From a virus (taxonomy: Duplodnaviria > Heunggongvirae > Uroviricota > Caudoviricetes), in IMG/VR virus record IMGVR_UViG_2711768052_000001, positions 1-43,044 of that record: a DNA stretch of 43,044 bases; one strand, written 5' to 3'. A program made the position numbers and the translations under genes. The first letter of the stretch is position 1, and every line of letters starts with the position of its first letter. Below, piece by piece: positions 33,007-39,023 of the stretch. A model generated the notes under the pieces. It had not been told where the DNA came from and did no database searches. It worked only from the letters and a program-made list of their open reading frames with translations.

Positions 33007-33035
33007 ATAATACGATATGTACTTTTAGAATGCAA
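33007..33035 (-). promoter_or_regulatory. Candidate PR promoter (-35 TTGCAT, 17-bp spacer, -10 TATTAT) with an operator-like 15-mer in the spacer
   Basis: Minus strand TTGCAT-tctaaaagtacatatcg-TATTAT about 25 nt upstream of the cro ATG; the spacer 15-mer AAGTACATATCGTAT resembles the one in PL. Confidence 0.55.
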
Positions 33036-33092
33036 ACAAAAAAATACATCTTGTGCATGGATGGTTTTAGTACAGAGCGTAATAATAAGGGT

Positions 33093-33752
33093 ATGAAAAT
33101 GAAATGGTATGAACTGGCTAGATCCAGAATGAAAGAGCTCGGCATAACTCAAGAGAGGTTAGCTGAAGAGCTTGGTATGACGCAGGGTGGAATTGGTCAC
33201 TGGTTGCGCGGATCTCGTCATCCATCTCTTGACGAGATTGGTGTGGTGTTTAAATACCTTGGTATTGATAACGTCTCATTCAACCACGACGGTACATTTT
33301 CACCTGTTGGCGAATACTCTCTGCCCCCGTTAAAAAAACAATATGAGTACCCTGTTTTTTCTCATGTTCAGGCCGGGATGTTCTCGCCTGAGCTTAGAAC
33401 CTTTACCAAAGGTGATGCGGAGAGATGGGTCAGCACAACCAAAAAAGCCAGTGATTGTGCGTTCTGGCTTGAAGTTGAAGGTAATTCCATGACCGCGCCA
33501 ACAGGATCCAAGCCAAGCTTTCCTGACGGGATGTTAATTCTCGTTGACCCTGAGCAGGCTGTTGAGCCAGGTGATTTCTGCATAGCCAGACTTGGTGGTG
33601 ACGAGTTTACCTTCAAGAAACTGATCAGGGATAGCGGTCAGGTGTTCCTACAGCCACTAAACCCGCAATATCCAATGATTCCATGCAATGATAGCTGTTC
33701 CGTAGTAGGGAAAGTTATCGCCAGCCAGTGGCCTGAAGAGACATTTAGTTAA
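33093..33752 (+). CDS. cI: CI repressor (about 219 aa): non-lambda N-terminal HTH domain fused to a lambda-like C-terminal S24 peptidase/dimerisation domain
   Basis: C-terminal about 115 aa ([30 protein letters not shown]...EVEGNSMT...) recalled as near-identical to lambda CI; N-terminal HTH differs; start may be 33093 or 33099 (ORF track 33030). Confidence 0.9.
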
Positions 33753-33784
33753 CAGCCTCACAACTCTAAAATACACAACAATAA

Positions 33785-33812
33785 CCCGACCTTAGCGTCG
33801 GGTTTTCTTTTT
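33785..33812 (+). terminator. Rho-independent terminator downstream of cI
   Basis: cccgac-cttagc-gtcggg hairpin followed by ttttcttttt. Confidence 0.65.
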
Positions 33813-33877
33813 CCAAAATATAAACCCATTAAATACAAAGCGTTATAAAAAACTAATTATATTTAGAACATTTTGTA

Positions 33878-33906
33878 TTGACTCAATAAAGTACAAATCG
33901 TACTAT
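33878..33906 (+). promoter_or_regulatory. PL promoter (-35 TTGACT, 17-bp spacer, -10 TACTAT) with an operator-like near-palindrome AGTACAAATCGTACT in the spacer
   Basis: Consensus-like hexamers with correct spacing upstream of nutL and N; the downstream transcript start region ATCAGCAGGACGCACT is lambda-like. Confidence 0.7.
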
Positions 33907-33945
33907 TTAGCCATCAGCAGGACGCACTAACCACCATGAAGGTGA

Positions 33946-33976
33946 GGCTCTTAAAAATTAAGCCCTGAAGAAGGGC
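33946..33976 (+). promoter_or_regulatory. nutL antitermination site (boxA GCTCTTA, boxB GCCCTGAAGAAGGGC)
   Basis: ggctcttaaaaattaagccctgaagaagggc, nearly identical to lambda nutL as recalled. Confidence 0.85.
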
Positions 33977-34159
33977 GGCATTCAAAGCAGAAAGCTTTGG
34001 GGTGTGGTGAAGCTCAACGGCGAGCTAGGGAATAGTTTTGCGGTGAAGATTCTAGACAACTAACCGCAGGATGCGCGTAACCCAATCGGCAGCGCACCGA
34101 TGGAAGCTGGTTCGACTCCAGCCACCACACCACCAAAGCTAACTGACAGGAGAATCCAG

Positions 34160-34486
34160 ATGGATGCACAAACACGCCGCCGCGAACGTCGCGCAGAGAA
34201 ACAGGCTCAATGGAAAGCAGCAAATCCCCTGTTGGTTGGGGTAAACGCAAAACCAGTTAACCGCCCTATTCTCTCGCTGAATCGCAAACCGAAATCACGA
34301 GTAGAAAGCGCACTGAATCCGATAGACCTTACGGTGCTGGCTGAATACCACGAACAGATTGAAAGCAACCTGCAACGTATTGAGCGCAAGAATCAGCGCA
34401 CATGGTACAGCAAGCCACGCAGTGAAATGGGTGTGACTTGTGTTGGTCGCCAGAAAATGAAATTAGGCAGCAAACCACTTATTTGA
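34160..34486 (+). CDS. N: Antiterminator N (108 aa)
   Basis: MDAQTRRRERRAEKQAQWKAANPLLVGV... arginine-rich motif; lambda N-like; AGGAG SD; ORF-track start at 34100 rejected. Confidence 0.95.
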   Translation: MDAQTRRRERRAEKQAQWKAANPLLVGVNAKPVNRPILSLNRKPKSRVESALNPIDLTVLAEYHEQIESNLQRIERKNQRTWYSKPRSEMGVTCVGRQKMKLGSKPLI

Positions 34487-34494
34487 GGTGAGAT

Positions 34495-34860
34495 ATGGAA
34501 GAACAAGCAAACAAGATTCTCGTAGAACTACTGCAAAAAGCCAGTAATGGAATAGACGCGGCTGTTTCATTTAGCCAGGCACAGATTCCTGATGTCATCC
34601 ATCAGCTTTTGATGTGGCACGCCGTATCATCAGCTGGAATTCAGGCTATCTGTGTATTGGTGATTATAGCGTGTGTTTATCTGATGATTTTTGCATGGAA
34701 TAAAGGAGATGATGCGGATGTTGTTATTTTATCGCTACTTGTAACATCAGGAATAGAGATTACTTCTATTGTTGTTTTCTTCAATTATTTCGACTGGCTG
34801 AAAATCTGGCTTGCTCCAAAACTTTACCTTATCGAATATGCAGCATCATTGGTTAAGTAA
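34495..34860 (+). CDS. Membrane protein (121 aa, 2-3 predicted TM helices); candidate superinfection-exclusion-type moron
   Basis: GAGGTGAG SD; hydrophobic segments ICVLVIIACVYLMIFAW and ILSLLVTSGIEITSIVVFF; first gene after N. Confidence 0.6.
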   Translation: MEEQANKILVELLQKASNGIDAAVSFSQAQIPDVIHQLLMWHAVSSAGIQAICVLVIIACVYLMIFAWNKGDDADVVILSLLVTSGIEITSIVVFFNYFDWLKIWLAPKLYLIEYAASLVK

Positions 34861-34864
34861 TTTC

Positions 34865-34892
34865 AGGCCGAATATTCGGCCTTTATTTTTAG
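34865..34892 (+). terminator. Rho-independent terminator after the membrane-protein gene
   Basis: Perfect palindrome aggccgaatattcggcct followed by ttatttttag. Confidence 0.55.
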
Positions 34893-34912
34893 CATAAACA
34901 ACAGAGGTGAAT

Positions 34913-35047
34913 ATGAACGCAGTTGAATTTACAAAATGGATGGCAGAGCAAGATATCACAGGAGCCGACGAAAAGGCTGTGTACTACATGGCTATGCTAT
35001 GGATTCACAAAGCAAAAGAGGCTGCAAATGCTCTTGGAGGTGAGTGA
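34913..35047 (+). CDS. Hypothetical small protein (44 aa)
   Basis: Hand-translated MNAVEFTKWMAEQDITGADEKAVYYMAMLWIHKAKEAANALGGE; AGAGGTGA SD; stop overlaps the next ATG. Confidence 0.4.
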   Translation: MNAVEFTKWMAEQDITGADEKAVYYMAMLWIHKAKEAANALGGE

Positions 35048-35247
35048 TGTGCGAGTTTTATGAAGCAGATATCAAACGCCCAGAAATGGCAAGTGATGCG
35101 ACATTACGTGATTACTTCGCAGCAAAGGCTATGCAAGCAATGATTAGCAATCCATCGATTATCGATAATGATTCTGATGGAGCTGTTAATTATGCAGCAA
35201 GCGCTGCATATAAGTTTGCAGACGCAATGCTCAAAGCTCGCGAATAA
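35047..35247 (+). CDS. Hypothetical acidic protein (66 aa)
   Basis: ORF 35044..35247; the ATG at 35047 is preferred over GTG 35044. Confidence 0.5.
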   Translation: MCEFYEADIKRPEMASDATLRDYFAAKAMQAMISNPSIIDNDSDGAVNYAASAAYKFADAMLKARE

Positions 35248-35381
35248 GCACTGTGTATTCATTCCAACGAGTGAATACACGGAGCAATGTCGCTCGTAAC
35301 TAAACAGGAGCCGACTTGTTCTGATTATTGGAAATCTTCTTTGCCCTCCGATGTGAGGGCAATTTTTTTGATGGAGGATAT

Positions 35382-36350
35382 ATGAGTGAAGTAACAGATT
35401 TAGTTGTTATTGAAAAAGCAAATGCAATGACTGTATTTCAGTCTGCCGACCAGATTGAAGAAATCCTTCAAAAGGTTGAACGTGAAGTTATGTCCTTTGT
35501 GCCTGATATCACAACGGCAAAGGGCAGAAAGGAGATCGCTTCTCTGGCGTATAAAGTTGCGCAGACGAAAACATATCTCGATGGTCTTGGCAAAGACCTT
35601 GTTGCTGAACTGAAGGAAATTCCAAAGCTAATTGATGCCAACCGCAAGACAGTGCGCGATCGCCTTGATGAGCTGAAAGCCAAGGCACGCCAGCCTCTTA
35701 CTGATTATGAGGAAGAACAGGCGCGGATTAAAGCCGAAGAAGAAGCTAAGGCAGCAGCTGAAGCTCTCGCAAAGCAAATTGAGTCTGACCATGAAATAGC
35801 GATTTTGATGGATCGCGAATTTGACCGCCAAAGAGAAGAGGCAAGACTCAAAGCGGAGCAGGAAAAGCGAGAGCATGAAGAACGCTTAAAAAGAGAAGCT
35901 GAAGAGAAAGCCAGAGCAGAAGCCGAAGCAAAGGCAAAATCCGAAATTGAAGCAGCAGCAAGGCGAGAAGCAGAAGCTAAGGCCGCAGCGGAACGTGCAG
36001 AGCGTGAACGCATTGAAGCCGAGCAGCGAGCACAGCGCGAAGCAAAAGAGGCAGCAGAACGAGCTGAAAGAGAAAAGCAGGCAGCAATTGAAGCAGAACG
36101 CAGAAAAGCACAGGAGGAGGCTGAACGAATCCGTCGCGATGCTGAAGCAAAAGAGCAAGCCAGAATAGCAGAAGAAAAAAGAATCAAGGACGAAGAAGAG
36201 CGTAGAGCAAAGGATAAAGCTCACCGGAAAGAAGTAAATAACAAAATACTTGCTGACCTTATCAAGGTTGGCGCATCAGAAGATGTTGCTAAAAATATCA
36301 TAACAGCCATCGTAAAAGGCGAAGTATTCGCAACAAAAATAACCTACTAA
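35382..36350 (+). CDS. Hypothetical protein (322 aa) with a long Glu/Ala/Arg/Lys-rich coiled coil (TolA-like composition)
   Basis: GGAGG SD at Met19 of ORF 35328..36350; about 100-aa globular N-terminus then about 170 aa of charged helical repeats. Confidence 0.7.
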   Translation: MSEVTDLVVIEKANAMTVFQSADQIEEILQKVEREVMSFVPDITTAKGRKEIASLAYKVAQTKTYLDGLGKDLVAELKEIPKLIDANRKTVRDRLDELKAKARQPLTDYEEEQARIKAEEEAKAAAEALAKQIESDHEIAILMDREFDRQREEARLKAEQEKREHEERLKREAEEKARAEAEAKAKSEIEAAARREAEAKAAAERAERERIEAEQRAQREAKEAAERAEREKQAAIEAERRKAQEEAERIRRDAEAKEQARIAEEKRIKDEEERRAKDKAHRKEVNNKILADLIKVGASEDVAKNIITAIVKGEVFATKITY

Positions 36351-36373
36351 TAAACCAACATAAGGAACCACCC

Positions 36374-36505
36374 ATGATTTACGCAATCGCGGGAGGCGCT
36401 CGCATGGGTGCCTTCCAACTAAATGAATCTTTACTTGAACGAATCACCCGTAAATTACGTGACGGATGGAAAAGAGTTGAGGTCTTATTATGCGCAATGA
36501 AATAG
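36374..36505 (+). CDS. cIII: CIII-like protease inhibitor (43 aa)
   Basis: Hand-translated MIYAIAGGARMGAFQLNESLLERITRKLRDGWKRVEVLLCAMK; the ESLLERITRKLRDGWKR core matches lambda CIII as recalled; AAGGAA SD. Confidence 0.7.
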   Translation: MIYAIAGGARMGAFQLNESLLERITRKLRDGWKRVEVLLCAMK

Positions 36506-36642
36506 CCATCAATCACCAGATGCTTCGTGCTGCACAGAACAAAGCAGTAATAGCACGATTTATTGGTGATTCAAAAATGTGGCTTGAAGCAAATAAAGCG
36601 ATGAAATCAGCTATCAATCTTCCGTGGTATCGCAGGAAATGA
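36490..36642 (+). CDS. kil: Kil-like protein (50 aa)
   Basis: Hand-translated MRNEIAINHQMLRAAQNKAVIARFIGDSKMWLEANKAMKSAINLPWYRRK; the FIGD.KM motif resembles lambda/P22 Kil as far as I recall; GAGG SD. Confidence 0.5.
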   Translation: MRNEIAINHQMLRAAQNKAVIARFIGDSKMWLEANKAMKSAINLPWYRRK

Positions 36643-36797
36643 GTTTTACAGATAACTGGTCAGACGAAGAGTTCATTCGTCAGATGAAAGAATTAATCGG
36701 TAACGAAGGAGATATTCATGTCACTTGCAACCACAGTGAAGGAGAGCAAGTTACAGAGACGCATGTACACACAGAAAGCTCTCTGGTATCGCCATAA
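36639..36797 (+). CDS. Hypothetical small acidic protein (52 aa), possibly Arf-like
   Basis: Hand-translated MSFTDNWSDEEFIRQMKELIGNEGDIHVTCNHSEGEQVTETHVHTESSLVSP; ATGA overlap with the kil-like stop; sits just upstream of erf. Confidence 0.4.
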   Translation: MSFTDNWSDEEFIRQMKELIGNEGDIHVTCNHSEGEQVTETHVHTESSLVSP

Positions 36798-36898
36798 TGG
36801 TGACCGCGAAGGAATGCGGGTATGCCTTAATTTGTCCCGAGTCGAAGTATTAAATCAGCGTTATTTCCTTGGGCCATGTCCATTCTGAGAACAATCAT

Positions 36899-37504
36899 AT
36901 GAGCAAAGAATTTTACGCAAGACTGGCAGCTATTCAGGAAAATCTGAACGCGCCCAAGAATCAGTACAACTCATTCGGTAAATATAAATACAGAAGCTGC
37001 GAAGACATTCTTGAAGGCGTTAAGCCGTTACTGAATGGTCTGTTTTTATCAATCAGCGATGAAGTTGTGTTGATTGGTGATCGGTATTACGTGAAAGCCA
37101 CGGCAACTATTACCGATGGCGAAAACAGTCATACGGCAACCGCTCTTGCACGAGAGGAAGAAAGCAAGAAAGGAATGGATTCTGCACAAGTTACTGGAGC
37201 TACAAGTTCTTATGCGCGCAAGTATTGCCTCAATGGTTTGTTCGGCATAGATGATGCGAAAGATGCAGATACAGACGAGCATAAACATCAGCAGAACGCA
37301 GCAGCAAAGCAATCAAAGCCATCACCTACACCTGAACAGGTTTTAAAAGCATTCACTGACGCAGCAATGCAGAAAAACACCGTAGAAGAGCTTAAACAGG
37401 CGTTCGCCAAAGCGTGGAAGATGCTCGAAGGCACACCGGAGCAGCACAAAGCGCAGGACGTTTACAACATCAGACGAGACGAATTAGAAGGAGCGGCTGC
37501 TTAA
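36899..37504 (+). CDS. erf: Erf single-strand annealing recombinase (201 aa)
   Basis: MSKEFYARLAAIQENLNAPKNQYNSFGKYKYRSCEDILEGVKPLL... recalled as highly similar to P22 Erf. Confidence 0.9.
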   Translation: MSKEFYARLAAIQENLNAPKNQYNSFGKYKYRSCEDILEGVKPLLNGLFLSISDEVVLIGDRYYVKATATITDGENSHTATALAREEESKKGMDSAQVTGATSSYARKYCLNGLFGIDDAKDADTDEHKHQQNAAAKQSKPSPTPEQVLKAFTDAAMQKNTVEELKQAFAKAWKMLEGTPEQHKAQDVYNIRRDELEGAAA

Positions 37505-37887
37505 TGGCACATTCGATTACTGTAAGACTAAACAAGCCCGCAAGAGAGTTTCAGGCCGGGGAAAATATCGGATTCAACATCCGTGCTGGCGTTCAGTATT
37601 ACGATCGCCAGACAAAAAAGAAAGAATGGACAAACTACAGCGCCGTTGTATTTGCCAAGCCGGGAGCGCAAGCGGATTACTACCGTAGTGTTCTTGTTGA
37701 AGGTGGCATTGTAGAAATTACCGGAGAAAACATCAGGGTTGATGTTTATCAGGGGCAAAATGGTCAATCAATCACTCTTGAATTACTGAATGCAAAGATT
37801 GGATTTGCAACTTCAGGAAACAGCCAACAGCAGCAAAGTAGCGATCATCAAAATCATCCTGAATACGACGATTCAATTCCATTCTAA
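37504..37887 (+). CDS. Single-stranded DNA-binding protein, phage SSB-like (127 aa)
   Basis: C-terminal Gln-rich linker ending in the acidic tail DDSIPF typical of SSB; TAATG overlap with the erf stop. Confidence 0.7.
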   Translation: MAHSITVRLNKPAREFQAGENIGFNIRAGVQYYDRQTKKKEWTNYSAVVFAKPGAQADYYRSVLVEGGIVEITGENIRVDVYQGQNGQSITLELLNAKIGFATSGNSQQQQSSDHQNHPEYDDSIPF

Positions 37888-37910
37888 AGTAGCAACATAA
37901 GGATTCCATT

Positions 37911-38204
37911 ATGCCAGCGCCTATGTATGGTGCGGATGACCCGCGCCGCTGTTCCGGCAATTCCGTATCGGAGGTGCTGGATAAATTCAGGAAAAACTAC
38001 GACCTGATAATGTCGCTACCGCAGGAAACGAAAGAGGAAAAGGAATTTCGCCACTGTATATGGCTTGCAGAGAAAGAAGAACGAGAGCGAATTTACCAGA
38101 CATCAATCCGACCATTCCGCAAAGCCACATATACCCACTTCCCTGAAATTGACCCGCGCCTGCGTAATTACCGCTCACGCTATGGCGCTATCAGTAATGA
38201 CTGA
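37911..38204 (+). CDS. Hypothetical protein (97 aa); possibly Abc2-like anti-RecBCD protein
   Basis: Size and position (recombination module, next to erf) match P22 abc2 (97 aa); sequence identity not verified. Confidence 0.45.
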
Positions 38205-38214
38205 GGAATTTACC

Positions 38215-38379
38215 ATGAGAGGACTTGCATACAATCCCGGCATTCTTCCGGCAGAAATGATTATTCGCCAACGCGTAAAGCCAATGCCATCGAGAGAGGA
38301 ATTGCTTAAGAGAAAGAGTTTCGGTTCTGTTAATGACAACAAATATCTGAATGCGATGTGGCGGAGTGGGAAGAAATGA
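38215..38379 (+). CDS. Hypothetical small protein (54 aa)
   Basis: GAGGAA SD; ATGA overlap with the downstream gene. Confidence 0.4.
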
Positions 38380-39023
38380 AACAAATGACACTAATTGAGA
38401 TGGATGGATTTCTGAAAGGTAAATGCATCCCACGAGATTTAAAGGTTAACGAAACAAACGCTGAATATCTGGTGCGTAAGTTCGGTGAACTTGAATCAAA
38501 ACTAGAAACGGCGTTGCGGGAGTGTCGTTCTGCTGGAATCACGATTGATAACCTTGATGCCAAGTGCGCGGCGCTGGCAGCGGAGAGTGCGGTGATGAAG
38601 GCGGGACATTCATATTTCTCATATGGCTCTGAGCATAATTTCGAATGGCACAAAACTGCTGAGGAAGCTATCGAATCGGCTGAGGCTGCAATCGACGACT
38701 ATCGCGGTGATGCTTGCGATGGATGGAGCGAAGAGGTCGATAGTATTTGCTGGGGAATCATCATGCAATCGTCAACGAAGGTTGGCGAACGACCACGCAA
38801 CGAGGATGACTGTTGTGATCCTGCGATCGATACGATTTGCGATTATGCGCTTCTACCTAATATCGAAACCCCAGCCACCGACACTTTTCTGGCTGAAGTA
38901 CGTGCGCAGGGTGTGGAGATGGCTATGGAGCATATGCAGTCGAGCGGTTCGTTAACATTTGGAGATTGCTACATATCACTTAACGAGTTCGCCGCAGAGC
39001 TTCGCAAAGGAGGTAACCAGTGA
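38376..39023 (+). CDS. Hypothetical acidic protein (215 aa)
   Basis: ORF 38358..39023 trimmed to the Met that overlaps the upstream stop. Confidence 0.6.

What the first reader, a model, noticed from the sequence alone, without database searches (positions are those of the whole stretch)
34495..36350. PL-proximal accessory block: membrane protein followed by a 322-aa TolA-like coiled-coil protein
The slot just after N, where lambda and P22 carry ral/sieB-type host-interaction genes, holds a 121-aa multi-TM protein with its own terminator, two small ORFs (44 and 66 aa) and a 322-aa protein that is about half charged Glu/Ala/Arg/Lys coiled coil. None is obviously lambda ral or sieB. These are candidates for exclusion or host-takeover functions.
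Basis: partly seen in the sequence, partly recalled or inferred. Interest (0 to 1): 0.5.

Follow-up and report, generated by a model that had tools for sequence, protein, structure and literature searches.

The report
Three unrelated early-gene cassettes after N
The stretch after the N gene of this P22-like E. coli prophage holds three unrelated gene cassettes, and its large "TolA-like" gene is a cytoplasmic relative of phage phi80 Agt, a widespread and mislabelled family that sits next to phage recombination genes.

Summary
All four ORFs, both terminators and the charged composition are present at the stated coordinates.

The block is not one unit.
- **orfA** (121 aa, two TM helices) is a mobile single-gene cassette of the PHROG 3054 / Sf6 gp34 family. 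It occurs in temperate and virulent phages, at many genome positions, with no constant neighbour.
- **orfB and orfC** (44 and 66 aa) are small insertions into a conserved boundary sequence.
- **orfD** (322 aa) follows a 133-bp linker, including terminator tL2a, that is near-identical (2 mismatches) to the lambda ral–ea10 intergenic region.

orfD is not TolA. It has no TM segment and scores 9 bits against a cut-off of 59. It is 50% identical over its full length to phi80 Agt, which GenBank annotates as "anti-toxin for Gam".

The family is very large: 5,736 clusters at 50% identity, with no Pfam model. In 27 of 51 non-redundant distant loci it lies directly beside Erf, RecT, Sak4-like, exonuclease or SSB genes. 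GamL is mostly absent from these loci.

The charged middle of orfD looks like an ER/K single alpha-helix rather than a heptad coiled coil.

Verdict: a new member of a sparsely studied known family in an ordinary mosaic context. Exclusion is unsupported for orfD and remains open for orfA.

The parts
33878..33906 (+). PL-like promoter (TTGACT-17-TACTAT), context only
   Evidence: the only sigma-70-like site found in 33700-36900
33962..33976 (+). nutL boxB hairpin GCCCTGAAGAAGGGC, context only
   Evidence: read directly from the sequence; that it equals the lambda boxB sequence is from my own knowledge
34160..34486 (+). N antiterminator, context only
   Evidence: Pfam N36 4e-25, PHROG 271
34495..34860 (+). 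orfA: 121-aa inner-membrane protein with two TM helices, conserved N- and C-terminal tails and a variable TM hairpin; a mobile single-gene cassette
   Evidence: PHROG 3054 1e-46; 574 homologues including Sf6 gene 34; hydropathy; AF2 model; alignments A6 and A8; varied genome positions
34865..34890 (+). intrinsic terminator closing the N-orfA unit; its 3' half and U tract are shared with the cassette-end sequence of lambda, HK633 and HF4s
   Evidence: (-11.9 kcal/mol)
34913..35047 (+). orfB: 44-aa protein of unknown function
   Evidence: PHROG 24660 3e-34; present in 4 of 80 close loci; exact sequence on 120 contigs
35047..35247 (+). orfC: 66-aa protein, start overlaps the orfB stop (TGATG); matches the C-terminal part of longer PHROG families
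   Evidence: PHROG 2201 4e-18, positions 156-215 of 226; identical copy in phage Sf101; present in 6 of 80 close loci
35249..35381 (+). conserved 133-bp linker ('boundary sequence' bsq4 of Sf6): a 14-bp-stem hairpin, terminator tL2a and the orfD RBS; within the four phages carrying an agt-type gene it differs only at three positions (one in the hairpin stem of HK633; the terminator loop has two variants, GATGTG in the window and HF4s, AGTGTG in Sf6, HK633 and lambda); lambda shares the linker only through the terminator U tract (35249-35369) with two further changes there, and diverges over the last ~12 bases (the RBS, 35370-35381), so 'near-identical to lambda' does not apply to the RBS
   Evidence: alignment A7; hairpin -21.7 kcal/mol, z -5.9; Sf6 record annotation
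35341..35369 (+). intrinsic terminator tL2a immediately upstream of orfD
   Evidence: -13.2 kcal/mol; annotated 'tL2A, homology to phage lambda' in the Sf6 record
35382..35711 (+). orfD N-terminal conserved domain (aa 1-110) with the motif PDxxTxKGRxxIASxAxKVxxxK...GKxL...DxxR
   Evidence: alignments A1-A5; the profile finds 5,736 clusters at 50% identity
35712..36206 (+). orfD ER/K-type charged helix (aa 111-275), about 25 nm if a single helix; its length varies among homologues
   Evidence: homologue lengths 245-463 aa
36207..36350 (+). orfD C-terminal conserved domain (aa 276-322, HRKxVN...G.SE..AK..I.AI..G.I....I.Y, invariant terminal Tyr) plus the stop codon
   Evidence: weak, non-significant UBA / RuvA domain III resemblance
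36374..38204 (+). downstream conserved block that travels with orfD: cIII, kil, arf, erf, an SSB-like ORF and abc2 (P22-type Rec module)
   Evidence: Pfam and PHROG hits; linkage in 80 close loci; Abc2 confirmed by tblastn

Best explanation
The interval is a mosaic of three independent cassettes in the PL operon of a P22-like (Lederbergvirus-type) E. coli phage.

**(1) orfA.** It is a self-contained membrane-protein cassette inserted between N and the first intrinsic terminator. It should therefore be transcribed together with N, before antitermination is needed (inferred). Its conserved parts are the soluble N- and C-terminal tails, which are held together by a sequence-variable two-helix membrane hairpin. 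I infer an early inner-membrane function. Blocking superinfecting DNA entry is the leading guess, at low confidence.

**(2) orfB and orfC.** These are small cargo genes inserted into the conserved boundary sequence. Their function is unknown.

**(3) orfD.** This is the functionally anchored gene. It is a cytoplasmic member of the phi80 Agt / Sf6 gp33 / D3 Orf53 family and is expressed only after N reads through tL2a (inferred).

The protein is an elongated rod: a small conserved N-terminal domain, a variable-length ER/K helix of about 25 nm, and a conserved C-terminal domain of about 45 aa that ends in an invariant Tyr.

I propose that it works as an adaptor or modulator of the phage's recombination and anti-nuclease takeover of host DNA repair (RecBCD/SbcCD). 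In phi80 it is reported to neutralise the toxicity of the nuclease inhibitor GamL. Here it would act alongside Abc2, Arf and Erf.

Shown: homology, architecture, absence of membrane features, genomic association with Rec modules, and independence from GamL and from SSAP type.

Inferred: the molecular target and the adaptor mechanism.
For: - **Homology.** BLASTP to phi80 Agt gives 50% identity over 322 of 322 aa, E 1e-64.
- **Annotation of the relative.** The phi80 record calls it 'anti-toxin for Gam; Mog (modifier of Gam)', with gamL 'toxic without Mog', in the gene order agt-gamL-recT-exo. The HF4s record names its homologue 'similar to phage phi80 Agt'.
- **Rec-module association.** In 51 non-redundant distant loci, 38 have a recognisable Rec-module gene within -3 to +5 genes and 27 have one directly adjacent. 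Pfam confirms the neighbours as ERF, RecT, RecA/AAA_24 (Sak4-like), YqaJ, DUF3799, SSB and NinB. Annotated phages show the same: LC3I3 (Bet-exo-SSB), phiLM21 (Erf-exo-NinB) and phiV039C (Erf-SSB).
- **Linkage in close relatives.** cIII follows orfD in 68 of 80 close loci, while the upstream side is variable.
- **No specific phage partner.** The same Agt allele sits with P22-type Erf, a distant Erf, RecT, or lambda Bet/Exo/Gam. GamL occurs in 6 of 80 distant loci and 0 of 80 close loci. A host target or a generic role is therefore more likely than a specific phage partner.
- **Cytoplasmic.** There is no TM segment.
- **Rod shape.** The AF2 model is all-helical with pLDDT 83, and the middle has an ER/K signature.
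- **Same slot as lambda ea10.** The linker with tL2a is near-identical (2 mismatches) to the lambda ral-ea10 intergenic region.
- **Positional precedent.** In Firmicutes phages the slot upstream of erf/sak4-ssb is filled by Mu Gam homologues, DUF1351, DUF2483 or gp157 (PMC8093625).
- **orfA independence.** Its genome positions are varied and no neighbour cluster is larger than 3 in 36 non-redundant loci.
Against: - The only functional statement for the family is a GenBank annotation plus my recollection of the abstract of Rotman et al. 2012. The paper itself could not be read.
- This window has no GamL, so the one reported activity cannot apply literally.
- In this phage, cIII, kil and arf lie between orfD and erf. 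A recent survey of lambdoid Rec modules does not list the gene as a Rec component (PMC12315714).
- Gene adjacency in early operons can reflect shared timing rather than shared function.
- 13 of the 51 distant loci showed no recognised Rec gene nearby. My gene calling there was crude, and singleton neighbours were not annotated.
- For orfA there is no functional evidence at all.
Confidence: 0.55

Rival explanations
1. orfD has a function unrelated to recombination, for example an anti-defence factor, a nucleoid or replication organiser, or a generic scaffold. On this view its position beside Rec modules reflects only co-expression in the early operon, and the phi80 'antidote' effect is indirect.
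For: - No GamL in the window or in most family loci.
- 13 of 51 distant loci lack a recognised Rec neighbour.
- Here cIII and kil separate it from erf.
- It is not listed among Rec-module proteins in the lambdoid survey.
- No recognisable DNA-repair domain.
Against: - The association holds across three SSAP superfamilies and across alpha- and gammaproteobacterial phages whose surrounding genes otherwise differ. By my estimate, about 53% direct adjacency is far above the roughly 7% expected for a random gene in a 60-gene phage.
- The only member with a reported phenotype acts on an anti-RecBCD/SbcCD protein.
Confidence: 0.25
2. orfD is a TolA-like envelope-spanning protein that interferes with Tol-dependent import, so that it acts in exclusion or colicin and phage resistance. 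This is what the NCBI product name 'cell envelope biogenesis protein TolA' implies.
For: - Public records name hundreds of homologues TolA or 'colicin import membrane protein'.
- The composition resembles TolA domain II.
Against: - No TM anchor or signal peptide: no 19-residue window exceeds Kyte-Doolittle 1.6.
- TIGR02794 scores 9.0 bits against a cut-off of 59.45, E 0.72.
- No TolA C-terminal domain or any other Pfam hit.
- The conserved N- and C-terminal domains are unrelated to TolA.
Confidence: 0.03
3. orfA and orfD form one two-part system, with a membrane anchor and a long rod, and orfB and orfC are accessories. On this view the block is a single functional unit.
For: Homologues of both are adjacent in Sf6 (gp34-gp33), HK633 and HF4s.
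Against: - An orfA homologue accompanies orfD in only 10 of 80 close loci.
- An Agt homologue is near orfA in only 1 of 36 non-redundant orfA loci.
- orfA occurs alone next to terminase, methylase or portal genes, and in virulent phages without Agt.
- A terminator and a recombination boundary sequence separate the two genes.
Confidence: 0.05
4. orfD is strictly a GamL-specific antitoxin and is an orphan or decaying remnant here.
For: The phi80 annotation ties Agt to GamL, and GamL-like genes directly follow Agt in six distant loci.
Against: - The gene is intact.
- Its N- and C-terminal domains are conserved across thousands of clusters.
- Nearly identical alleles persist in many prophages with Abc2 and without GamL.
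Confidence: 0.05

Closest known systems
Phage phi80 (Lula) Agt / Mog, PHI80_40 (AFV29176.1)
   Same: Same length (322 aa), 50% identity end to end, and the same three-part architecture. Same operon (PL) and the same position upstream of the recombination genes.
   Different: In phi80 it lies directly before gamL-recT-exo. Here there is no GamL: the anti-RecBCD gene is Abc2, the SSAP is Erf, and cIII-kil-arf intervene. The antidote activity is known only for phi80.
Sf6 gene 33 protein / Pseudomonas phage D3 Orf53 / PHROG 1376 (unknown function)
   Same: The first 109 of the 123 N-terminal residues queried (tblastn) are 100% identical to Sf6 gp33; that stretch is the conserved N-terminal domain, and the remainder of the protein was not compared with Sf6. 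The window shares the upstream tL2a linker and the downstream cIII-kil-arf-erf block with Sf6. PHROG 1376 matches at 3e-110.
   Different: The exact sequence is not in the protein collection. The cargo between N and the linker also differs: Sf6 has genes 36, 35 (ral) and 34, whereas the window has orfA, orfB and orfC.
E. coli TolA (TIGR02794)
   Same: A long Ala/Glu/Lys/Arg-rich helical region, which is the origin of the public 'TolA' labels.
   Different: No TM anchor and no TolA domain III, with a score far below the cut-off. The protein is cytoplasmic and phage-encoded.
Firmicutes phage proteins DUF1351 (PF07083), Sipho_Gp157, DUF2483 and Mu Gam homologues, found upstream of erf/sak4-ssb
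   Same: They occupy the same position relative to the SSAP-SSB module and are of unknown accessory function (PMC8093625, compared).
   Different: HMMER detects no sequence relationship for the window protein or for 40 diverse family members. A profile-profile comparison could not be run.
Lambda ea10 (the slot occupant in lambda)
   Same: It lies immediately downstream of the same conserved tL2a linker and upstream of cIII.
   Different: It is an unrelated 122-aa protein. ea10 co-occurs with orfD in 5 of 80 close loci, so the two are not strict alternatives.
ER/K single alpha-helix (SAH) domains, as in myosin VI and X (from my own knowledge)
   Same: About 79% E/A/R/K, few hydrophobic residues, no heptad signal, and an excess of i to i+3/i+4 opposite-charge pairs. 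Variable length is consistent with a spacer or ruler.
   Different: Monomeric helix behaviour has not been shown, and Ala content is higher than in classic ER/K motifs.
Sf6 gene 34 protein / PHROG 3054 (for orfA)
   Same: 52% identity and the same layout of tail, TM hairpin and tail.
   Different: Sf6 gp34 has a longer inter-TM loop (140 aa in total). The function of either protein is unknown.

Membership tests
phi80 Agt / Sf6 gp33 family (PHROG 1376) | Full-length sequence homology to phi80 Agt | tested here: met
   50% identity, 322 of 322 aa, E 1e-64; PHROG 1376 3e-110
phi80 Agt / Sf6 gp33 family (PHROG 1376) | Architecture: conserved N-terminal domain, variable charged helix, conserved C-terminal domain of about 45 aa ending in Tyr | tested here: met
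   alignments A1, A2, A4 and A9; composition; AF2 model
phi80 Agt / Sf6 gp33 family (PHROG 1376) | Encoded in the early operon on the promoter-proximal side of the recombination module | tested here: met
   window order orfD-cIII-kil-arf-erf-abc2; family-wide association
phi80 Agt / Sf6 gp33 family (PHROG 1376) | Paired with a GamL-type nuclease inhibitor | tested here: not met
   no GamL in the window; found in 0 of 80 close and 6 of 80 distant loci. Pairing therefore does not hold across the sequence family, only in the phi80 case.
phi80 Agt / Sf6 gp33 family (PHROG 1376) | Neutralises toxicity of the phage anti-RecBCD/SbcCD protein | not testable with these tools
   requires co-expression and viability assays; the claim for phi80 rests on the GenBank annotation
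TolA (cell envelope integrity protein) | N-terminal transmembrane anchor | tested here: not met
   no 19-residue window with Kyte-Doolittle above 1.6
TolA (cell envelope integrity protein) | Score above the curated cut-off of TIGR02794, and presence of TolA domain III | tested here: not met
   9.0 bits against 59.45; no Pfam hit of any kind
Canonical heptad coiled coil | Hydrophobic a/d periodicity (3.5 residues) | tested here: not met
   zero power at period 3.5 (99.75% of shuffles higher); a/d positions at most 13% hydrophobic in any register
ER/K single alpha-helix | High E/R/K content with excess i+3/i+4 opposite-charge pairs and predicted continuous helix | tested here: met
   87 pairs against 53 +/- 5.7 in shuffles; AF2 helix 148-295 with pLDDT 82-94
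ER/K single alpha-helix | Stable monomeric helix in solution | not testable with these tools
   needs CD, SAXS or analytical ultracentrifugation
Lambda Ral / SieB / Ea10 | Sequence similarity to the lambda proteins | tested here: not met
   tblastn of lambda ral, sieB and ea10 against the window gave no hit; no Pfam hit
DUF1351 / Sipho_Gp157 (Firmicutes Rec-module neighbours) | Match to the Pfam models | tested here: not met
   no hit for orfD, its N-terminal domain or 40 family members, even at E up to 5-10
DUF1351 / Sipho_Gp157 (Firmicutes Rec-module neighbours) | Remote homology by profile-profile or fold comparison | not tested
   no DUF1351 sequences could be obtained. TP901-1 ORF10, tried as a proxy, has no Pfam hit. 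The afdb50 library was unavailable.
PHROG 3054 / Sf6 gp34 family (orfA) | Sequence homology and the layout of conserved tail, two TM helices and conserved tail | tested here: met
   PHROG 3054 1e-46; 574 homologues; alignments A6 and A8; AF2 model
Moron (autonomous cassette with its own promoter and terminator), for orfA | Own terminator and independent insertion at different genome positions | tested here: met
   terminator; found after N, after Q, before terminase, and antisense between portal and terminase genes
Moron (autonomous cassette with its own promoter and terminator), for orfA | Own promoter | tested here: not met
   no sigma-70-like site between PL and orfA, and none upstream of the antisense copy in L175. 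The consensus scan is insensitive.
Known exclusion or holin families (SieB, Imm, phage holins), for orfA | Match to Pfam, PADLOC or PHROG models with that annotation | tested here: not met
   no Pfam hit; PADLOC gives only 2TM-effector noise at E 0.07; the PHROG hits are of unknown function

The most novel reading that the evidence does not exclude
Agt-family proteins are an unrecognised, general component of proteobacterial phage recombination modules. The family has about 5,700 clusters at 50% identity, no Pfam model, and is widely mislabelled TolA. On this reading the protein is a rod-shaped adaptor in which an ER/K 'ruler' of tunable length separates an N-terminal domain from a UBA-like C-terminal docking domain. 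It would act on a host target such as RecBCD or SbcCD, regardless of which SSAP or nuclease inhibitor the phage carries. The phi80 'Gam antidote' would then be one manifestation of this role.
Probability: 0.3. Interest if true: 0.6.

Novelty: new member of a known kind. Interest (0 to 1): 0.33.

Why it matters
For this window the result is mostly clarifying. The interval is ordinary lambdoid mosaic cargo. Its eye-catching 'TolA-like' gene is a homologue of phi80 Agt and has nothing to do with the envelope.

Three wider points follow.

1. Thousands of prophage proteins carry a wrong 'TolA / colicin import' label that comes only from composition.
2. The Agt family is very large, has no curated model, and sits beside Erf-, RecT- and Sak4-type recombination modules across Proteobacteria, usually without GamL. 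Its one reported activity therefore cannot be the whole story, and it is a tractable candidate for a missing accessory function in phage recombination or RecBCD takeover. That bears on recombineering and on defence systems that sense RecBCD inhibition.
3. orfA belongs to a membrane-protein family shared by temperate and virulent phages, with unusually conserved soluble tails. It is a cheap target for exclusion or membrane-physiology screens.

Tried and rejected
- **Curated families.** Pfam, NCBIfam and PADLOC scans of all four proteins and of orfD sub-domains gave nothing above noise. Pfam on 40 diverse Agt-family members gave no shared family at E 0.01, and none at E 5 beyond scattered noise hits such as Baculo_PEP_C in 7 of 40.
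- **Fold search for orfA.** Foldseek against the PDB had no hit with E below 0.7.
- **PDB profile searches.** The N-terminal domain had no hit below E 0.1. The C-terminal domain gave weak UBA (E 0.034) and RuvA domain III (E 0.23) hits. I keep these as a lead, not a result.
- **Homology to Firmicutes DUF1351.** I could not obtain DUF1351 sequences. TP901-1 ORF10, upstream of its SSAP, has no Pfam hit, so I dropped this.
- **Literature.** Rotman et al. 2012 (PMC3510586) is not held. No held paper contains both 'GamL' and 'Agt'. The 2025 lambdoid Rec-module survey does not mention the gene and has no held supplements. The 2010 Lula paper has nothing relevant.
- **Does orfA share orfD's Rec-module association?** The contexts in virulent phages suggested it might. 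Neighbour clustering of 36 non-redundant loci showed no conserved partner, so I rejected the idea.
- **tRNA or tmRNA in the N leader.** ARAGORN and Rfam were negative.
Full report
**Setting.** The window is a P22-like (Lederbergvirus-type) E. coli phage or prophage. Its first 24 kb match Kapi1, phiv205-1 and CUS-3 at 95-96% identity. On the + strand the early-left operon runs: cI (33030-33752), a PL-like promoter (33878-33906), nutL boxB (33962-33976), N (34160-34486), the four ORFs of the finding, then cIII, kil, arf, erf, an SSB-like ORF and abc2.

The four ORFs are:
- orfA, 34495-34860, 121 aa;
- orfB, 34913-35047, 44 aa;
- orfC, 35047-35247, 66 aa, with its start overlapping the orfB stop;
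- orfD, 35382-36350, 322 aa.

All have good ribosome-binding sites and strong PHROG matches, every one to a family of unknown function. Exact copies of orfA, orfB and orfC lie on 57, 120 and 994 public contigs, always labelled 'hypothetical'.

orfA has two hydrophobic helices. It is followed by a real intrinsic terminator (-11.9 kcal/mol).

orfD residues 111-275 are 79% E/A/R/K.

Lambda ral, sieB, ea10 and gam have no counterpart in the window. In lambda the order is N-sieB-orf28-ral-ea10-cIII.

**The block is a mosaic, not a unit.** I aligned the region upstream of orfD with Sf6, HK633, HF4s and lambda. Window 35249-35381 holds a 14-bp-stem hairpin (-21.7 kcal/mol), the terminator that the Sf6 record annotates as tL2A, and the RBS. 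This stretch is near-identical in all five phages, apart from three positions (one in the hairpin stem, two in the terminator loop). In lambda it is the ral-ea10 intergenic region, which matches through the terminator U tract but diverges over the last ~12 bases including the RBS.

In the other phages this linker abuts a cassette-end sequence (…GGCCTTTATTTTTGGCATAAACAACAGAATAAAC…). In the window that sequence is split: its 5' part forms the orfA terminator, and orfB-orfC (about 340 bp) are inserted before the linker resumes.

Among 80 close relatives that carry orfD (N-terminal domain 73-100% identical), cIII follows in 68, kil in 55 and abc2 in 55. An orfA homologue is present in only 10, orfB in 4 and orfC in 6, and all three are present together in none. 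So orfD belongs with the conserved cIII-kil-Rec block, and orfA, orfB and orfC are interchangeable cargo.

**orfD is not TolA.**
- It has no hydrophobic segment at all.
- It scores 9.0 bits against a cut-off of 59.45 on the TolA model.
- It has no Pfam domain.

The many public labels 'cell envelope biogenesis protein TolA' and 'colicin import membrane protein' are compositional artefacts.

The charged region is also unlikely to be a classical coiled coil. It has 9.7% bulky hydrophobic residues, no 3.5-residue periodicity, at most 13% hydrophobic a/d positions in any register, and a six-sigma excess of i+3/i+4 opposite-charge pairs. This is the signature of an ER/K single alpha-helix (from my own knowledge of such domains), about 25 nm long.

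AlphaFold2 predicts an all-helical rod (pLDDT 83). Helices span residues 46-140 and 148-295, with a small N-terminal helical cap and a short C-terminal element.

**What orfD is.** The HF4s record calls its homologue 'similar to phage phi80 Agt; Gam antitoxin'. The phi80 record has agt (PHI80_40, 322 aa, 'anti-toxin for Gam; Mog (modifier of Gam)') directly upstream of gamL ('toxic without Mog'), recT and exo. orfD and phi80 Agt align end to end at 50% identity, E 1e-64.

As I recall the abstract of Rotman et al. 2012 (J Bacteriol 194:6802), gamL encodes an inhibitor of RecBCD and SbcCD that is toxic to E. coli, and agt is 'its own antidote, apparently encoding a modifier protein'. The paper is not in the held library, so this rests on the GenBank record and on my memory.

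**The family.** A profile of the N-terminal domain finds 5,736 clusters at 50% identity (2,022 with E at most 1e-30). The domain starts within about 25 residues of the N-terminus in every listed hit, in proteins mostly 300-370 aa long. Forty diverse members share no Pfam family.

Three parts are conserved:
- an N-terminal domain with the near-invariant motif PDxxTxKGRxxIASxAxKV…K…GKxL…DxxR…R…LD…RxPL;
- a charged helix of variable length (whole proteins range from 245 to 463 aa);
- a C-terminal domain of about 45 aa ending in an invariant Tyr.

The C-terminal profile gives weak hits to UBA domains (E 0.034) and RuvA domain III (E 0.23). This is a lead only.

Phage hosts include Escherichia, Klebsiella, Yersinia, Vibrio, Pseudomonas, Shewanella, Acinetobacter, Erwinia and Sinorhizobium.

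**Genomic association.** In annotated distant phages the homologue is next to these genes:
- Bet-exonuclease-SSB in Pseudomonas phage LC3I3;
- Erf-exonuclease-NinB in Sinorhizobium phage phiLM21;
- Erf-SSB in Vibrio phage phiV039C.

I then took 80 distant loci from IMG/VR and reduced them to 51 non-redundant ones. I clustered the neighbouring ORFs and annotated the cluster representatives with Pfam. The dominant neighbours are ERF (22 loci, mostly at position +1), YqaJ exonuclease (22, mostly +2), SSB (9), DUF3799 nuclease (5), RecT (6), a RecA/AAA_24 Sak4-like ATPase (2) and NinB (2). In all, 38 of 51 loci have such a gene within -3 to +5 genes, and 27 of 51 have one directly adjacent.

GamL homologues follow Agt in only 6 of 80 distant loci and in none of the 80 close loci.

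Essentially the same Agt allele (N-terminal domain at least 97% identical, C-terminal domain at least 95%) is found with several Rec combinations across 56 loci:
- P22-type Erf plus Abc2 (28 loci);
- a distant Erf plus Abc2 (17);
- Abc2 with no recognised SSAP (7);
- RecT (3);
- lambda Bet/Exo/Gam (1).

So the family tracks Rec modules whatever the SSAP or nuclease-inhibitor type. That argues for a host target or a generic role rather than a dedicated phage partner (inference).

The literature on Firmicutes phages describes an analogous slot upstream of erf/sak4-ssb, occupied by Mu Gam homologues, DUF1351, DUF2483 or gp157 (PMC8093625). I found no sequence link to those families.

The recent survey of lambdoid Rec modules (PMC12315714) discusses GamL but not Agt.

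**Proposed mechanism for orfD.** It is expressed only after N-mediated read-through of the orfA terminator and tL2a. No promoter-like site lies between PL and orfD; this step is inferred. The protein stays in the cytoplasm as an elongated adaptor. Its two conserved ends are held apart by an ER/K helix. It modulates the phage's takeover of host double-strand-break processing, by tempering or redirecting the action of the anti-RecBCD protein (GamL in phi80, Abc2 here) or by acting directly on RecBCD/SbcCD.

I hold family membership and the Rec association with high confidence. I hold this mechanism with moderate-to-low confidence.

**orfA.** The family has 574 hits in the protein collection and 181 phage records. 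Its N-terminal 45 residues and its C-terminal 'FDWLKIWLAPKLYLIEYAASLVK' are highly conserved. The two TM helices and the loop between them vary freely. The membrane hairpin therefore looks like an anchor for two conserved soluble tails on the same side of the membrane.

Homologues occur in many positions:
- after N in Pectobacterium prophages;
- between a DNA methylase and an Acb2/Tad1-hairpin gene downstream of Q;
- between the lysis cassette and terminase;
- as a lone antisense gene between portal and terminase genes;
- in the early regions of virulent phages (Justusliebigvirus, N4-like Triduovirus, Vibrio phages).

Neighbour clustering of 36 non-redundant loci shows no conserved partner. 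No known holin, SieB, Imm or defence-effector model matches, and there is no PDB fold match.

In the window it lies 8 nt after N and before the first terminator, so it should be made together with N (inference).

Its function is unknown. An early membrane-directed role such as superinfection exclusion is the best guess. It is not specific to lysogeny.

**orfB and orfC.** These are small soluble proteins of unknown function. orfC corresponds to the C-terminal roughly 55 residues of longer PHROG families, one of which is annotated 'transcriptional regulator'. An identical copy is in phage Sf101.

**Verdict.** It is wrong about a TolA-like or exclusion role for the large gene and about the block being a unit. 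The finding is a new member of a sparsely characterised known family in an ordinary mosaic context. Interest is modest. The residual upside is that the Agt family may be an overlooked general Rec-module component.

Noticed in passing
window 33985-34150 (+), N leader between nutL and the N start: The long closing stem GGGGUGUGGUG/CACCACACC + ACCA, which lambda shares at its RNase III site, here encloses a different interior. That interior folds into a cloverleaf-like shape with a T-arm-like CUGG-UUCGACU-CCAG (MFE -67.8 kcal/mol, z -5.4). About 75% identical copies lie in unannotated DNA of 91 records, the listed ones being virulent Salmonella siphophages (seszw, Skate). ARAGORN and Rfam call nothing. 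It may be a tRNA-like element embedded in the N leader.
   Followed up: partly
public records homologous to window 35382-36350: Hundreds of RefSeq, GenBank and IMG entries name this cytoplasmic phage protein 'cell envelope biogenesis protein TolA', 'colicin import membrane protein' or 'fibrinogen binding protein'. These labels come from its charged low-complexity helix and are wrong (against 12, 32).
   Followed up: yes
L170 2934-4687 and L171 611-2364 (Scandinavium-type prophage): A 61%-identical orfA homologue sits between an N6/N4 DNA methyltransferase and an Acb2/Tad1-hairpin (anti-CBASS/Thoeris sponge-like) gene, downstream of the Q antiterminator. This is a small cluster of probable counter-defence cargo.
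   Followed up: no
window 35249-35381 compared with lambda 33905-34086 (ral-ea10 intergenic): A 133-bp non-coding linker (hairpin plus tL2a) is near-identical between this P22-like phage, Sf6, HK633, HF4s and lambda, even though the flanking genes differ. orfB-orfC are inserted exactly at its upstream edge. This fits the 'boundary sequence' recombination-joint idea annotated in the Sf6 record.
   Followed up: yes
window 35705-36224 (- strand): Long antisense ORFs (160, 112 and 82 aa) overlap the ER/K-coding region of orfD. Their Ser/Ala/Cys/Leu-rich translations are compositional artefacts of the GAA/GCA/AAG-rich sense strand, not genes. The same artefact disturbed my automatic gene calling in related loci.
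   Followed up: partly
window 37504-37887 and 38358-39023 (+): Two further early-left ORFs have no Pfam hit. One is a 127-aa protein in the position of the Rec-module SSB. The other is a 221-aa protein downstream of abc2.
   Followed up: no
L112, L114, L128 (position +1 after the Agt homologue) and L110, L121, L156: GamL-like genes of 93-95 aa (46-94% identical to phi80 GamL) directly follow the Agt homologue. In the two of three inspected loci where an SSAP was recognised (L112, L114) they precede recT, reproducing the phi80 agt-gamL-recT order in uncultivated viral contigs.
   Followed up: partly
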